From: Protoeuglena noctilucae
Lineage: Eukaryota
Reading direction: 5' to 3'
Assembly: GCA_958009085.1 (NCBI GenBank)
Contig: OY253679.1
Span: forward strand, 806,001 to 870,000
DNA: 64,000 nucleotides
Of this stretch, positions 17,836 through 44,372 are shown piece by piece. Position numbers and translations under genes: made by a program. Each line of letters opens with the position of its first letter. The stretch's first letter is position 1. The notes under the pieces are model-generated. The model did no database searches. It was given only the letters and a program-made list of their open reading frames with translations, and was not told the DNA's origin.

Positions 17836-19898
17836 TCACGACGCATCCATGGCCTCCCCCATGGCCGCCAGGCGCACGCAGCCCCGCCCCTGCTGCACCA
17901 TGAAGAGCGTGCTCGGCGGCGGCCCGCTGCAGAGCCCCGTGCTCCCCGCGGGAGTCTTCAGGACCTGCGCAGAGCACGGGCGGGGAGCAGGGCCGTGAAA
18001 ACGCCGACGGGCTGGCTGCAAAGGGTCCTTTGCCCCCCGGCACCTACGCGTCTGCCACCCGACCTCGCACATCCCCGCCGCGTGCCACGACGCGTCCCTC
18101 CGGGCCGACAAGAACACGTCCCCGTCCTCCGCCAGGGGTGCCAGGGAAATCGCGGCCGTGCTGCATGCCGAAAGGGAATGGCGGGTGAGTGGTGATCTCT
18201 GCGCGGCTGCCCCACTCGCTCCGTGGACATGCATCGCTAACCCATCGCCACCCTGCCCCGTCACCGCCCCTTGCCTCAGGTGCACCTACCCATCGCCACC
18301 CTGCCCCGTCAACGCCCCTTGCCTGAGGTGCACGGCTGACGTGATGGCCCACGGCGGGAGGCCCCCGAAAGACACCGTCACCAGCGCAGCCCCCGTGGAC
18401 CCCCTCAGCGAGCTCCGCAGTGCTTGCAAGAACCCAAGCGACTCGCTGGGGTCGCTCGGGAGCCCCGCATCGCCCAGGGAAAGCACCGCCAGCCGTGCCA
18501 CGTCGGCCTCTGCCCCGTCGCGCGGGTCACCCGCCTGAGGGACCTGGGGGCGAGAAAGAGCACGTTCTTGAGGAAAAAGTGGGCGCACGGGGTGGAGACG
18601 CGCGTTACACGGGGGGCTGTATGGAGAGGGCATGCGAGGTGAGACTCGCCTCGCCCGCTTGCTCAGCAGCTCTCGCTGCCAGCCGCTTGGCCACCAGAGG
18701 ATGCAGCGCCCGCGCCCCAGACGCCGCCCTAATCGCCGTCCCAGACACTGCCCCAATCGCCGCCCCACCGGCACTCCTCGCAGCCCCGCCCCCTGTGCCC
18801 AGTGCTCCCCCCGCCGTGCCAACCCCGCCTCCCCGGCCCCCTGGCACCTCCGACCGCGGCGCGCACCCCTCCAGAATTCGCATGCAGGCAGCCCGCACCG
18901 CCCCCGCCGCGCCCCCTCCCTCCCCTCCGCTCAGGTCCGCCCCGCCCAGTCCGCATGGCCCGCACCCCCGCACAACGCACACCGCCTGTCCCGCCGGCGC
19001 CCGCTCCGCGTCTCCCGTGCCCATCCGACCGCCCAGGTCCCAGTCCTCGCACCGACGCTTGGACGCCCCCGCACGCAACGCCGCCTCTGGGGTCTTCGCC
19101 CCCTGCCCCTCCACCCTCGCCCGGTGCCCCGTCCCGGCCGCCGACGATGCCTGGCCCCTCGAAGGAACAGAAGCTGAGACTGCGCCTGCCGGGCCTTGCG
19201 CCCCGTCTGCGGTCGCAGGGGCGGGGCAGCGCGGTCGCCCTGCGCCGGGCACAGCGGCCGTGCCTGCGCGCCGCTCGCCCATCGCACCCGACCCCGGCCT
19301 GCCGTCCGGCCCCGCCGGGAGTCCCTCGGTGTACCGGCGGTACTGCCAGGCAATCCTGAGGTCCCCGCCCTGGGCGGCGCCTGATGCGAGCTCCTCAATG
19401 TCGACGTCGTGCGAGGGGGCGGAGGCCGTCCCAGCCGCGGCGGCCGCGGCGGCCCGAGAGCGGCGGATGCTCGGGAGCCAGGCCATGAGGGCGTCGCGGG
19501 CTGCGGCTCCGGAGGCGGCGGGGGGCAGGGGCGGGGCGTCGGGGCCGCAGAGGAGGGCGCTGTGCCCGTGGTGGATTCCCTCGGCCAGGAAGCACCGGGC
19601 GATGGACACGTGGTGCTCGGTGCAGCCGTCCTCCACGACGAGGAGGAGGGAGCCGAGGGGGAGACCGCCCCCGAGCACTGCGGACGGGAGCGGGCGCAGG
19701 AGTGAGCGCCCGGGCTGTCCGCAGGCCGGGATGGGTGGGAATTGTCTGGCATAGATGAGATCGTGCTGCACGGATGGCGCCGGACTTCAGGGCAGTCGGG
19801 GAGGGCCCGCCCGCACCTGCGTCCAAGGACTGGAGGCCCGTGGAGAGCAACCGCTGGCCCTCATAGCCCGGCTATGTCCCCGGGACAGCGGATTGCAT
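17836..19898 (-). CDS. ELP4: Elongator complex subunit 4 (PAXNEB family), 5 inferred exons; in-frame TAG at codon 9
   Basis: Motifs LSTGLQSLDA|VLGGGLPLGSLLLVVED, DLRIAWQYRRY and FLQALRSSLR..AALVT are characteristic of Elp4. Confidence 0.85.
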
Positions 19899-20444
19899 CC
19901 GCGCGATGTCTCGAAGCAGACCGGTCGCGTATGGTCGCAGAAGCACGCAGCGGACGAGGCCGCGGGGTAATTGATGACGCCGGCGGCGCCCCGGGATGCG
20001 CCAGGTCCCTGCGACACCACCACGGCGTCCTCATCGACGTTTGGGGGAAGGCAGGTGTGAAGGAGCGGAGGAGAGCGAGATGGATGCCCCGCTCTGGCAG
20101 ATCTGACGCGAAGCGGCGCGGGCGCAGGAGCTTCTGCTCGCCAGCTGGGTCACGCGCTGCGCAGTCCTTTGTCACTCTCTCCTGGCACGTCGGGGCGACG
20201 CGTGCCGCCTTCCGGGCTCGACAGGGCTGGGCTAGGACAGGGCTGGGGTAGCAGGGTGCAGCAGGAGCGCGGCGAGGTGCGCTGTGCAGCTCGGCGGCCT
20301 GCTTACGATCTCACATTCCCTTGATCGCCTCGGACGGGGCGTCGAAAGCCTCGCGCGGACCCTCAGACTCCTGTCGGCGTTGCGTGCGGCCTTCGCAGGC
20401 TTGCAGGCCAACGGCGCCTTCTCGCTTCACTCGCAGGGGCGACA

Positions 20445-41294: not shown

Positions 41295-42178
41295 CGCGGC
41301 GGCACCCTGGAAGCGGCCCTGCAGGCCCAGCGCGCGCGCGGGATCGGCGAGCCGGCGGGACGCAGAGTCGACACAGCGCGCTTCCGAGACAAGAGTGCAC
41401 GGCGGAGCGAGACAGGGGCGCCGGCGCCGGAGCGCCTGATCAGCACTCGAGGCCGCAAAGCCCCGCGAGGGATCTCGTCTGGGGCACGGCGTGGCGGAGG
41501 CGCATCCTCCATCCGTTACCAGCCGCCCCTTGAGGACGAGAATGTGCTTCCGAGGACCCCGCCCTATCCGGACCCGGGAGCCCGCTCACCTACGGCCCGC
41601 GCTACGTCCCGAGCGCAGCGAGTACTCGGCGGCCCGCAAAGCGCCTCTGCGCCCTGGCCTGCGCACGCCCGCTGGAGCAGAACACAAGGGATCGGGAGAC
41701 CAGGTCGCGGGCGGCCTGTCGCACCCGCGGAGCGCAGAATGCGCGGGGCAGCGGGCCCCGGGCGAGGGCCGTTGACCTGCGAGACGAGCGCCTGTCCACA
41801 ATGTTTTATTTCTTCCGTGAGAGCGACCGGCGCCCCAGTCATCGAGCGCGCCCGGGCGCGGCACGCGGGCACTGGCGAAACTTGACCTACCGATTTCAGG
41901 CCTGATGCGCCAAGCAGATATCGCGACCCGTTCCCTCTCCTCTCTGTTGTCGCCGGCCCGGACTCAGAGCTCCCTAGCCCCCCTCATCGCCGCAATCCAC
42001 TCCTTCGCACGCTCGTCGGGAGAATTGTGTTCCAGCGCCTTGCTCGCCGCGACCTGCGCGCTCCGGGATCGCCGGTCGCCCTCTGCTTTCCTCTCCCGAC
42101 CCAGCCCAGGCGCGCGCCCTGGTCGCCGGCGCTAGGAGCCGAGGCACATTATCCGCCGCGCCAGCCCTGGGCCACCCG

Positions 42179-44372
42179 ATGCGGGTCGTGACGCGCGTGC
42201 TGAGCGCGGCGCCCGCGGCGTGCGGAAGGGCCGTGGCCTCCGCCCCGCGCGATCCCCTGGCCCGCCTGGCGGCAGGCAGGGCCCCGGTGGCAAGCGCCGC
42301 GCCGTGTCCCAGCGCCCGGCGCGGCCCCGCGGCCGCCCGCGCCCGGACCTCCGTCGCTCGTGAGGAGATGCGTGCGGACGAGGCGTCCACGTCGAGCCCG
42401 GCCGCGTGGTGGCGGGGCCGCAACGTGGTCGACGTCCTTCGCGAGCGTGGCCTCGTCAACCAGGCGAGCAGCGTCTTGCTCGTCCCTCCCGGGCCAGCGT
42501 GCCCCGCCCATCCCCGCCCGTGCCAGCCACCATCCCTCGCATCCTCAGGTCACGGCGGAGGACGACCTCCGCGCCGCCGCGTCCTCCCGCCGCCTCCGCG
42601 CCTACTGCGGCTTCGACCCCACGGCCGACTCCCTGCACCTGGGCAACCTCCTCGGCATCATCGTGCTCTCCTGGTTCCAGCGGTGCGGCCACGAGCCCGT
42701 CGCGCTCGTGGGCGGCGCCACGGCGCGCGTGGGGGACCCCTCCGGACGCAGCACCGAGCGCCCGGTGCTGACGGAGGAGCAGGCGAGTGGTATGATGGGG
42801 GCCATGTCATGGGCGGGGGTTGATTGGTGAATGCAGACTGCGACACTTCTTGTCCTCATCATTCCCCTTAAGGTGCTTGCTACCGTGCCTGTGCACCCCT
42901 CGTCTGCGACCACCACCCCAACCGACCCCTCTCGTCTGTCTCAGGTCGAGGCGAACACGCGTGGCATCCGGGAAGTCCTCACGCGCATCCTGGGTCGCAC
43001 CACCCCCGGCGCCGCCGCCGCCCCGTGCACCGTGATGAACAACCTGGAGTGGTTTGGTCCCATGGGATTCCTCGAGTTCCTCAGAGACGTCGGCAAGTTC
43101 GCACGCGTGGGCACCATGCTGGCCAAGGACTCGGTGCGCACGAGGCTTGAGGCGAGTGGGGCGGGGATGTCGGCATGCGGGACTGTGTCAGGGCATGTGG
43201 GGGCCGCGTCACGCGTGCGACAGTCCACCGCGTCTGCCCGCAGTCGGAGGCCGGCATCTCCTTCACGGAGTTCACCTACCAGCTCCTCCAGGGCTACGAC
43301 TTCGTCAAGCTGCACCGGGACCACGGGGTGGACGTGCAGGTGGGGGGGTCGGACCAGTGGGGCAACATCACGGCGGGCACGGAGCTCCTGCGGAAGATGT
43401 CAGGGGACGGGGCGGAGGCAAACGCTGGGGCTGACGGCGAGGGCGCGGCCCCGTCCGTCTTCGGCCTCACCTTCCCGCTCCTGCTGGACGCGAGCGGCAA
43501 CAAGTTCGGCAAGTCCACGGGGGGCGCCATCTGGCTGTCCCCCGACAAGCTCTCGCCCTACCAGTTCTACCAGTACCTCTTCAAGACTGAGGACGCGGAC
43601 GTCGTCAAGGCGAGGGGCTGGCCGGCTGGGTGGGCAACGGATTGTGACGCACTTGTGCACCGTGCTTCGAGCCCAATCTGGCCCGCCCCAAATGGGTGAC
43701 ATCCTCACAGCGCCCGTCTCCACCGCAGTTCCTGCGCATGCTGACCTTCCTGCCCATGGAGGAAATCGACGCCCTGGAGGCATCCATGGGCGCCCCGGAC
43801 TATGCCCCCAACACGGCGCAGCGGCGGTTGGCCGAGGAGGTCACGCGGGTGCGTGGGACGCCGGCCGCGGTGGGGTGCTGGCTGGGCACGGTCGGTGCCC
43901 ACATCGGAAAGAACGTCCCCTCGGACCCTTGCAGTTTGTGCATGGGGAGGAGGGCCTGGAGCAGGCCGTGCGCGCGACGGAGGCGATGCGGCCGGGGCAG
44001 GACACGCGGCTGGACGCCGCGGCGCTCGAGGCCATCGCGAGGGACGTGCCCTCGACCTCGCTCCCCCGGGACCAGGTGGTGGGGCGCCCGGTGGTGGACG
44101 TGGTCGTGGCGGCGGGGCTGCAGCCGAGCAAGGGGGCGGTGCGGCGCCTCGTGCAGAACGGCGGGCTGCGGTGAGGCTTAGGGGGAAGGTGCGCTGGCGC
44201 AGTGGTCGGGGTCTCAGTGGCGAAGTGGGTGGGCTCGGTCTGCCCATGCAGGGTCAACAACCAGCAGGTGCAGGAGGCCGACGCGGTCCTGCAGGAGGCG
44301 GACGTGATCGAGGGGCGGCTGGTTTTGCTGGCGGCGGGGAAGAAGAACAAGCTGCTCTTGCGCGTGGATTGA
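42179..44372 (+). CDS. Organellar (bacterial-type) tyrosyl-tRNA synthetase, 7 exons
   Basis: [47 protein letters not shown], a C-terminal S4-like domain and an Arg/Ala-rich transit peptide. Confidence 0.96.

What the first reader, a model, noticed from the sequence alone, without database searches (positions are those of the whole stretch)
18322..43610. Extremely frequent GC-AG introns with an AG|GC(G/A)AG donor
Seen: conserved protein frames require GC donors in RPL35 (30958, 31195; 2 of 3 introns), TyrRS (42464, 42783, 43152, 43610; 4 of 6), NVL (35726, 34690, 32495), the kinase (40254, 39987) and ORC4 (22474). They are probable in ORC4 (24225) and ELP4 (18649, 18322). That is roughly a fifth of the introns I could infer, and all are preceded by exonic AG. 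Established: GC-AG is around 1% in most plants and animals, and elevated use is reported mainly for dinoflagellates and haptophytes. Inference: relaxed or altered 5' splice-site recognition (U1/U5/U6, Prp8) or GC pressure acting on donors in this green alga.
Basis: partly seen in the sequence, partly recalled or inferred. Interest (0 to 1): 0.7.

Follow-up and report, generated by a model that had tools for sequence, protein, structure and literature searches.

The report
Abundant GC-AG introns, GC-rich green alga
In this very GC-rich marine green alga roughly a third to a half of the introns in the window begin with GC instead of GT, a real but already documented consequence of high GC content that is tolerated only when the rest of the splice signal is perfect.

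Summary
RNA contigs and an RNA-derived protein show GC-AG introns at all 8 sites claimed in RPL35, TyrRS and the kinase. Two of the three NVL sites are chosen by 10 of 10 homologues and the third by 5 of 10. The ORC4 and ELP4 sites remain unconfirmed.

Of 32 introns with RNA, homology or reading-frame support, 14 are GC-AG. Of the 20 with RNA support, 11 are GC-AG.

The context of GC donors is strict. 13 of 14 read AG|GCGAG, while only 1 of 18 GT donors has those same perfect flanks (p = 5e-7). This is the classic compensation pattern. It points to ordinary U1/U2-type recognition combined with GC-biased sequence evolution (GC3 0.89), not to relaxed recognition.

The introns share no sequence with each other, so they are not introners, and they carry no U12 signals.

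The kind is known: GC-AG makes up 22% of introns in Micromonas pusilla, 7.7% in Chlorella, 40% in Aureococcus (PMC3033335) and 56% in Emiliania (PMC4028052). This is a new member of that kind, probably near the pedinophytes. The genome-wide fraction and the snRNAs could not be checked because no genome is held. Earlier notes from this scan do not cover this finding.

The parts
30958..31051 (+). GC-AG intron 2 of RPL35/uL29 (aag|GCGAGG...CAG)
   Evidence: An RNA contig of X2 skips it. Exon identity: Ribosomal_L29.
31195..31452 (+). GC-AG intron 3 of RPL35 (cag|GCGAGC...CAG)
   Evidence: An RNA contig of X2 skips it. No GT lies within the 6-base slack.
30418..30823 (+). GT-AG intron 1 of RPL35 (tgg|GTGAGC)
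   Evidence: The 'letters between' in an X2 contig match the end of exon 1 at 30409-30417.
42464..42548 (+). GC-AG intron 1 of organellar-type TyrRS
   Evidence: Exact mapping of transcript-derived P0001. An X4 contig piece ends at 42460.
42783..42944 (+). GC-AG intron 2 of TyrRS
   Evidence: Also recovered with 3 of 3 foreign homologues.
43152..43243 (+). GC-AG intron 3 of TyrRS
43610..43728 (+). GC-AG intron 4 of TyrRS
   Evidence: An X4 piece ends at 43607.
43849..44251 (+). Stretch holding the two GT-AG introns of TyrRS (43849-43934 and 44171-44251)
40108..40254 (-). GC-AG intron of the protein kinase gene (aag|GCGAGG)
   Evidence: A 3954-nt RNA contig in X2 and X4. Pkinase domain.
39882..39987 (-). 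GC-AG intron of the kinase gene
38015..38192 (-).
37714..37849 (-).
36100..41165 (-). Kinase gene span. Its GT-AG introns are 36791-36887, 37197-37284, 38268-38400, 39262-39423 and 39584-39744 (RNA-supported), and 40594-40740 and 41001-41140 (from the reading frame).
34468..34690 (-). GC-AG intron of NVL/Rix7-like AAA ATPase (cag|GCGAGA)
   Evidence: Chosen by 10 of 10 homologues. A GT alternative at 34678 would add 4 residues inside a conserved motif.
32316..32495 (-). GC-AG intron of NVL
   Evidence: Chosen by 10 of 10 homologues.
35612..35726 (-). Probable GC-AG intron of NVL (gag|GCGAGG)
   Evidence: Chosen by 5 of 10 homologues.
32579..35024 (-). NVL stretch holding six GT-AG introns: 34867-35024, 34041-34163, 33775-33879, 33260-33460, 32920-33102, 32579-32738
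   Evidence: Each chosen by 7-10 of 10 homologues.
27377..27531 (+). GC-AG intron of an unnamed + strand gene, with the atypical donor cgg|GCAAGT. It is followed by a 75-nt exon and a GT-AG intron at 27607-27727.
   Evidence: Pieces of the 1250-nt X2 contig. Boundaries worked out.
22385..22474 (-). Candidate GC-AG intron of an ORC4-like gene (cag|GCGAGG)
   Evidence: It removes an in-frame stop, but in-frame GT alternatives exist. Picked ab initio. No RNA or homologue support.
24225..24226 (-). Claimed GC donor upstream in ORC4 (cag|GCGAGG). Unconfirmed.
   Evidence: Only the motif is present. The ab initio model chose another site.
18544..18649 (-). Candidate GC-AG intron of ELP4 (gag|GCGAGT). 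Unconfirmed.
   Evidence: Chosen by 0 of 12 homologues. Picked ab initio.
18161..18322 (-). Candidate GC-AG intron of ELP4 (cag|GCAAGG). Unconfirmed.
   Evidence: Chosen by 2 of 12 homologues. Picked ab initio.
19678..19816 (-). GT-AG intron of ELP4 (cag|GTGCGG)
   Evidence: Chosen by 11 of 12 homologues. PAXNEB domain.

Best explanation
These are ordinary major-spliceosome (U2-type) introns of a nuclear genome with about 70% GC. The organism is a marine chlorophyte, nearest to a pedinophyte on one gene tree.

At a large share of donor sites the T at position +2 has become C. Such GC donors are spliced, which is shown by RNA. The inferred reason is that every other position that pairs with the U1 and U6 snRNAs matches the local consensus: exon AG, then G C G A G. 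GT donors, by contrast, almost always carry one deviation elsewhere, usually a non-A at -2 or a non-A at +4.

The local consensus AG|GTGAG has three A/T positions: -2, +2 and +4. Nearly every donor has lost just one of them. The picture is one of GC-biased mutation or gene conversion eroding donor sites down to the minimum strength that a canonical spliceosome accepts, with T-to-C at +2 as one of the affordable losses.

Shown: the GC-AG junctions in RNA, their number, and the context rule. Inferred: the canonical U1/U6 machinery, the direction of change (T to C), and GC bias as the cause.
For: RNA junctions: 11 GC-AG among 20 RNA-supported introns.

Homology: two NVL GC-AG introns are chosen by 10 of 10 homologues.

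Context rule: 13 of 14 GC donors have perfect flanks against 1 of 18 GT donors (Fisher p = 5.4e-7). A at -2 occurs in 13 of 14 GC donors against 5 of 18 GT donors (p = 2.9e-4).

Motif use: in five validated gene spans (8422 nt exon, 4485 nt intron), all 12 sense-strand AGGCGAG are donors. None of the 10 sense GGCGAG without the preceding A is a donor.

The two classes are otherwise alike: lengths 85-258 nt (GC) and 81-406 nt (GT), pyrimidine content before the acceptor 0.76 and 0.74, and a CAG acceptor in 31 of 32 introns.

GC bias: window about 0.70 GC, GC3 0.886.

Literature: GC-AG abundance follows genomic GC in Aureococcus, M. pusilla and Chlorella, and the U1 5' ends there are canonical (PMC3033335, passages). 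Emiliania has 56% GC-AG, attributed to 65% GC (PMC4028052, passages).
Against: Genomic GC alone does not predict the GC-AG share. Micromonas RCC299 (64% GC) has only 2.7% (PMC3033335), so another factor may act.

The sample is one window and is uneven between genes: TyrRS has 4 of 6, while a WD40 gene has 0 of 8 by ab initio prediction.

Three of the 14 GC introns and 9 of the 18 GT introns rest on homology or frame logic. That logic could lean towards consensus-like sites.

U1, U6, U1C and Prp8 of this organism were not seen. The direction of change was not polarised with an outgroup.
Confidence: 0.75

Rival explanations
1. The spliceosome of this lineage is altered (U1 snRNA 5' end, U1C, U6 or Prp8) so that C at +2 is accepted about as well as U. 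The GC donors then reflect changed recognition rather than tolerance.
For: The share is very high: 14 of 32. PMC3033335 calls the abundance in Aureococcus and M. pusilla an enigma and suggests that U1 snRNP proteins or base modifications may differ (passage read). GC content alone does not explain Micromonas RCC299.
Against: If C at +2 were as good as U, GC donors would not need perfect flanks. Yet 13 of 14 have them against 1 of 18 GT donors. U1 5' ends were canonical in the two species examined in PMC3033335. Nothing from this organism's machinery was available.
Confidence: 0.12
2. GC donors are kept by selection as deliberately weak sites, for regulated splicing or intron retention, rather than arising passively from mutation bias.
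For: One run of an RNA library (X1) covers these genes only with unspliced contigs. PMC4028052 links non-canonical junctions to frequent intron retention in Emiliania (passage).
Against: X1 may simply contain DNA; the tool itself warns of this. GC introns sit in housekeeping genes (RPL35, TyrRS) and are removed in the dominant, high-depth contigs. Contigs cannot measure efficiency.
Confidence: 0.08
3. The GC-AG introns are copies of a spreading intron-generating element (introner) that carries a GC donor.
For: The two species with the highest GC-AG shares in PMC3033335 are, from my recollection, also the classic introner hosts. I saw the Huff et al. 2016 title only in a reference list.
Against: An all-against-all comparison of the 32 introns gives only two chance-level 19-20-nt hits, and none between GC introns. 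Lengths range from 85 to 258 nt.
Confidence: 0.02
4. Artefact: the C is an assembly error or strain difference, the contig alignments are misplaced, and real transcripts use GT donors. Alternatively, the introns are U12-type.
For: Contigs, not raw reads, were laid. Only 15 of 47 joints were printed.
Against: No GT lies within the alignment slack at any of the 11 RNA-supported GC junctions. The DNA-like run X7 spans the 20 kb with 4 differing letters, none at a donor. 0 of 32 introns has a U12-type donor or branch motif. Chlorophytes are reported to lack the minor spliceosome (PMC11347168, passage).
Confidence: 0.02

Closest known systems
GC-AG-rich introns of Micromonas pusilla (22.2%) and Chlorella sp. 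(7.7%), GC-rich green algae (Iwata & Gotoh 2011, PMC3033335, passages read)
   Same: Green algae with genomic GC of about 66-67% or more. GC-AG introns far exceed the ~1.3% average, and the excess is attributed to genomic GC.
   Different: The share in this window is higher (14 of 32; 95% CI 26-62%), but it is measured on one window only. The lineage differs: on the TyrRS tree it is sister to a pedinophyte, not a mamiellophyte or trebouxiophyte. In the passages I read I saw no statement of the strict AG|GCGAG rule.
Emiliania huxleyi, 56% GC-AG among 241 curated junctions (Feldmesser et al. 2014, PMC4028052, passages read)
   Same: GC donors at about half of all junctions, canonical AG acceptors, a high-GC genome, and ab initio gene models misled by GT-only assumptions.
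   Different: It is a haptophyte, not a green alga, and it also has about 4% GA donors. No GA donor was seen among the 32 introns here.
Aureococcus anophagefferens (39.6% in PMC3033335; 14-17% in bioRxiv 10.1101/2024.10.30.620910) and Pelagomonas (~14%)
   Same: About 70% GC genome, GC-AG abundance attributed to GC content, and a canonical U1 5' end.
   Different: These are stramenopiles that are intron-poor (0.2-0.9 introns per gene). The genes here carry 3 to 11 or more introns each.
Rare GC-AG introns of mammals and plants (~1%)
   Same: U2-type. The GC donor is compensated by a closer match to the U1 consensus at the other positions. This is my recollection of Burset 2000 and Thanaraj & Clark 2001, which I did not read here. 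PMC3033335 reports distinct 5' splice-site profiles for GC-AG introns.
   Different: The frequency is 30-40 times lower. The consensus is GCAAGT rather than GCGAG.

Membership tests
U2-type GC-AG spliceosomal intron | The intron is removed from mature RNA with GC at its 5' end and AG at its 3' end | tested here: met
   11 junctions seen in RNA contigs or in an RNA-derived protein, with no GT alternative.
U2-type GC-AG spliceosomal intron | The donor flanks match the organism's own GT-donor consensus (complementarity to U1/U6) | tested here: met
   13 of 14 GC donors read AG|GCGAG. The GT consensus is G|GTGAG.
U2-type GC-AG spliceosomal intron | Pyrimidine-rich tract and YAG acceptor, as in GT-AG introns of the same genome | tested here: met
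   CAG in 31 of 32 introns and TAG in 1. Pyrimidine fraction 0.76 (GC class) and 0.74 (GT class).
U2-type GC-AG spliceosomal intron | Removal by the major spliceosome with a canonical U1 5' end | not testable with these tools
   No snRNA gene lies in the window and no genome is held.
U12-type (minor) intron | Donor /RTATCCTT and branch site TCCTTAAC | tested here: not met
   0 of 32 introns carry either motif.
Introner / transposon-derived intron family | Introns are near-identical copies of a repeated element | tested here: not met
   All-against-all blastn of the 32 introns gives two hits of 19-20 nt and no family.
GC-rich algae with abundant GC-AG introns (Aureococcus, M. pusilla, Emiliania) | Genomic GC of about 65% or more | tested here: met
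   Window GC is 0.58-0.75 per 4-kb bin, about 0.70 in the gene region. GC3 is 0.886. This is window level only.
GC-rich algae with abundant GC-AG introns (Aureococcus, M. pusilla, Emiliania) | A GC-AG share of tens of percent genome-wide | tested here: inconclusive
   14 of 32 in this window. A genome-wide figure cannot be obtained.

The most novel reading that the evidence does not exclude
This chlorophyte lineage may have an adapted 5' splice-site recognition system: a change in a U1 snRNP protein or RNA modification, in U6 or in Prp8. Such a system would treat AG|GCGAG as a second, fully efficient class of donor. GC-AG would then be a co-dominant splice signal rather than a tolerated defect. 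That would give a tractable green-algal model for the unexplained GC-AG excess noted for Aureococcus and Micromonas pusilla.
Probability: 0.12. Interest if true: 0.6.

Novelty: new member of a known kind. Interest (0 to 1): 0.3.

Why it matters
Practical value: gene prediction for this organism must allow GC donors. With GT-only rules, 4 of 6 TyrRS introns and 2 of 3 RPL35 introns are mis-called, and spliced alignment scores drop by about 100-190 units per gene.

Biological value: the window gives a clean small example of a 'one deviation per donor' rule under strong GC pressure. That rule bears on how far splice signals can erode before recognition fails. It also adds a further green-algal lineage to the short list of GC-AG-rich eukaryotes. 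It does not reveal a new mechanism.

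Tried and rejected
- Whole-genome search: no genome is held. A genome-wide GC-AG share and a check of U1, U6 and Prp8 were therefore not possible.
- Rfam on the window: only rRNA was found, no snRNA.
- ORC4: a homologue search with the exon 22037-22429 found nothing at E <= 1e-8. Two PDB sequence searches gave no ORC4 hit. A metagenome scan with exon 22091-22384 found no relative. The 22474 junction stays unverified.
- ELP4: the only 100% match (P0241) is an unspliced ORF call on genomic DNA and says nothing about splicing. 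Homologues are too distant to fix the 3' half of the gene.
- Pfam scan of 143 stop-to-stop ORFs between 17.2 and 28.2 kb: only weak ELP4, ORC4_C and zinc-finger hits. I did not continue it.
- My ab initio exon-chain finder: tested by leaving one gene out, it recovered 24 of 31 true introns, and 24 of its 32 predictions were true. Its false calls are mostly GC, so it overcalls GC donors and I use it only as weak support.
- A 41-nt 'GC-AG intron' at 34273-34313, chosen by 5 of 10 NVL homologues, was rejected. It is most likely a one-base indel, because an X1 contig has an extra C after 34298.
- Read laying printed only 15 of 47 joints, so the NVL, ORC4 (24225) and TyrRS joints were not seen directly.
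- Literature searches for GC-AG in chlorophytes or pedinophytes gave only PMC3033335 as a relevant green-algal report. I found no report for pedinophytes. Supplements were not opened.
- Earlier notes of this scan held nothing on this genome or on GC-AG introns.

Full report
WHAT THE WINDOW IS

The window is nuclear DNA with about 70% GC. A unique gene-bearing stretch runs from about 17.3 to 49.1 kb. It is flanked by rDNA units in inverted orientation.

Gene identities were checked on single exons:
- Ribosomal_L29 (RPL35/uL29), tRNA-synt_1b (TyrRS), Pkinase, AAA (NVL/Rix7-like), WD40, CCB1 and NAD synthase.
- PAXNEB (ELP4) and a weak ORC4_C match.

The best named relatives are green algae. A quick single-gene tree puts the window's TyrRS beside Pedinophyceae sp. 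YPF-701 (SH-aLRT 97). That is weak evidence for a core chlorophyte near the pedinophytes. No whole genome is held.

RNA EVIDENCE

Runs from marine metatranscriptomes hold the stretch. I laid contigs of X1, X2, X4 (RNA libraries, one study) and X7 (DNA-like) on 24001-44000. X2 and X4 carry spliced contigs. X7 spans the whole 20 kb in one piece with 4 differing letters, none at a donor, and shows none of these joints.

- RPL35: the contig skips 30958-31051 and 31195-31452. Within the reported slack only GC..AG is splice-like. Its first intron, 30418-30823, is GT-AG.
- Kinase gene on the minus strand: a 3954-nt contig seen in both X2 and X4 gives nine joints, five GT-AG and four GC-AG. Two further GT-AG introns follow from the reading frame.
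- TyrRS: the protein database holds P0001, 100% identical, whose longest source contig is 1959 nt. That is the length of an X2 RNA contig lying on this gene. I infer that P0001 is transcript-derived.
- An unnamed plus-strand gene at 26.9-28.2 kb: pieces of a 1250-nt X2 contig imply a GC-AG intron 27377-27531 with the unusual donor GG|GCAAGT, then a 75-nt exon, then a GT-AG intron.

In all, 20 introns have RNA support and 11 of them are GC-AG. All RNA evidence comes from contigs of one study, and the tool printed only 15 of 47 joints.

HOMOLOGY EVIDENCE

I wrote a protein-to-genome spliced aligner that treats GT and GC donors equally. On TyrRS with three foreign homologues it recovered 5 or 6 of the 6 true introns in the conserved part. 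It invented introns in the unconserved N-terminus.

- NVL with ten homologues:
  - Six GT-AG introns are chosen by 7-10 of 10.
  - GC-AG introns 34690-34468 and 32495-32316 are chosen by 10 of 10.
  - The GC-AG intron 35726-35612 is chosen by 5 of 10.
  - With GT donors only, scores fall by about 100-190 per homologue.
- ELP4: only one intron is solid, 19816-19678 GT-AG (11 of 12 homologues).
- ORC4: no homologues could be obtained. The 22474 donor removes an in-frame stop, but in-frame GT donors 12-15 nt downstream would also do so. It is likely, not required.

HOW MANY

Of 32 introns with RNA, homology or frame support, 14 are GC-AG (44%, 95% CI 26-62%).

Adding weaker calls gives about 18 of 53 (34%). 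The weaker calls are:
- NAD synthase: one GT intron placed by alignment to PDB 6ofb and one by frame logic.
- ORC4, ELP4, a WD40 gene and two others from my ab initio finder.

The ab initio finder is only about 75% precise and overcalls GC. Genes differ widely: TyrRS has 4 of 6, while the WD40 gene has 0 of 8 predicted.

THE CONTEXT RULE

- GT donors read G|GTGAG with a free -2 position.
- Perfect flanks (A-2, G-1, G+3, A+4, G+5) occur in 13 of 14 GC donors and in 1 of 18 GT donors (p = 5.4e-7).
- The RNA-supported subset shows the same split: 10 of 11 GC donors and 1 of 9 GT donors.
- In the five validated gene spans, all 12 sense-strand AGGCGAG are donors. None of the 10 sense GGCGAG lacking the A is a donor.

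So nearly every donor carries exactly one departure from AG|GTGAG, at one of its three A/T positions. C at +2 is the commonest of these departures.

The two intron classes do not differ in length, pyrimidine tract or acceptor. None has U12 signals. They share no sequence with each other, so they are not introner copies.

INTERPRETATION

The strictness of GC donors is the known compensation pattern. It argues for canonical recognition under strong GC-biased evolution (GC3 0.886), not for relaxed recognition. An adapted spliceosome is not excluded, because none of its genes could be inspected.

WHAT IS KNOWN

All of the following come from passages I read.
- Iwata & Gotoh 2011 (PMC3033335) report GC-AG shares of 39.6% in Aureococcus, 22.2% in Micromonas pusilla, 7.7% in Chlorella sp. 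and 2.7% in Micromonas RCC299. They found canonical U1 5' ends and call the cause an enigma.
- Feldmesser et al. 2014 (PMC4028052) report 56% GC-AG among 241 curated Emiliania junctions.
- A 2024 preprint (10.1101/2024.10.30.620910) gives 14-17% for Aureococcus and about 14% for Pelagomonas.

The phenomenon, its occurrence in green algae and its link to GC content are therefore in print. I found no report for pedinophytes.

VERDICT

It is a new member of a known kind. Interest is modest.

Noticed in passing
3564-14419 and 51207-62044; rRNA genes at 6274-11915 (-) and 53711-59352 (+): Two rDNA units, 99.7% identical over 10.9 kb, lie in inverted orientation and are transcribed away from the 32-kb unique gene region. 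A partial next unit at 16146-17341 implies a unit length of about 12.6 kb. A 200-N gap at 49147-49346 sits at the right-hand junction, so the arrangement may be a scaffolding artefact.
   Followed up: partly
34298 (NVL, minus strand): An X1 contig has an extra C after 34298. Five of ten homologues needed a 41-nt pseudo-intron (34273-34313) to keep the frame. This suggests a one-base indel, or a frameshift error, in the window sequence.
   Followed up: partly
33575 to 34400: Contigs of X2, X4 and also the DNA-like X7 join 33575 to 34400 with 9 other letters in between. It is present in DNA, so it is not splicing. It may be a deletion allele or a related copy elsewhere (table 5c).
   Followed up: no
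36007-36673 and 38008-38674: Depth spikes appear in the laid contigs: X1 about 5060 and 3226, and X7 about 2030 in the first bin. They lie over low-complexity Ala/Pro/Gln-rich coding sequence of the kinase gene and probably reflect shared simple repeats.
   Followed up: no
27532-27606 (+): A 75-nt internal exon of an unnamed gene with no Pfam match is supported by the RNA contig. My ab initio finder skipped it.
   Followed up: partly
1059-1065 (+): A sense-strand AGGCGAG lies about 20 nt before the stop codon of the NAD synthase gene. It is either an unused exonic copy of the donor motif or the donor of a 3' intron.
   Followed up: no
46047-49140 (+): A WD40-repeat gene is predicted ab initio with 8 introns, all GT-AG. 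This contrasts with 4 of 6 GC-AG in the neighbouring TyrRS gene, so the GC-AG share is very uneven between genes.
   Followed up: partly
13877-16684 (-) and 49349-51749 (+): The rDNA intergenic spacer subrepeats hold 18 of the window's 55 AGGCGAG heptamers. This inflates the window-wide excess over the shuffle expectation (55 against 16.5), so that excess is not evidence about splicing.
   Followed up: partly
62372-62710 (-): This exon belongs to a CCB1 gene (cytochrome b6f cofactor assembly), a plastid-related nuclear gene. That fits a photosynthetic green-lineage host.
   Followed up: no
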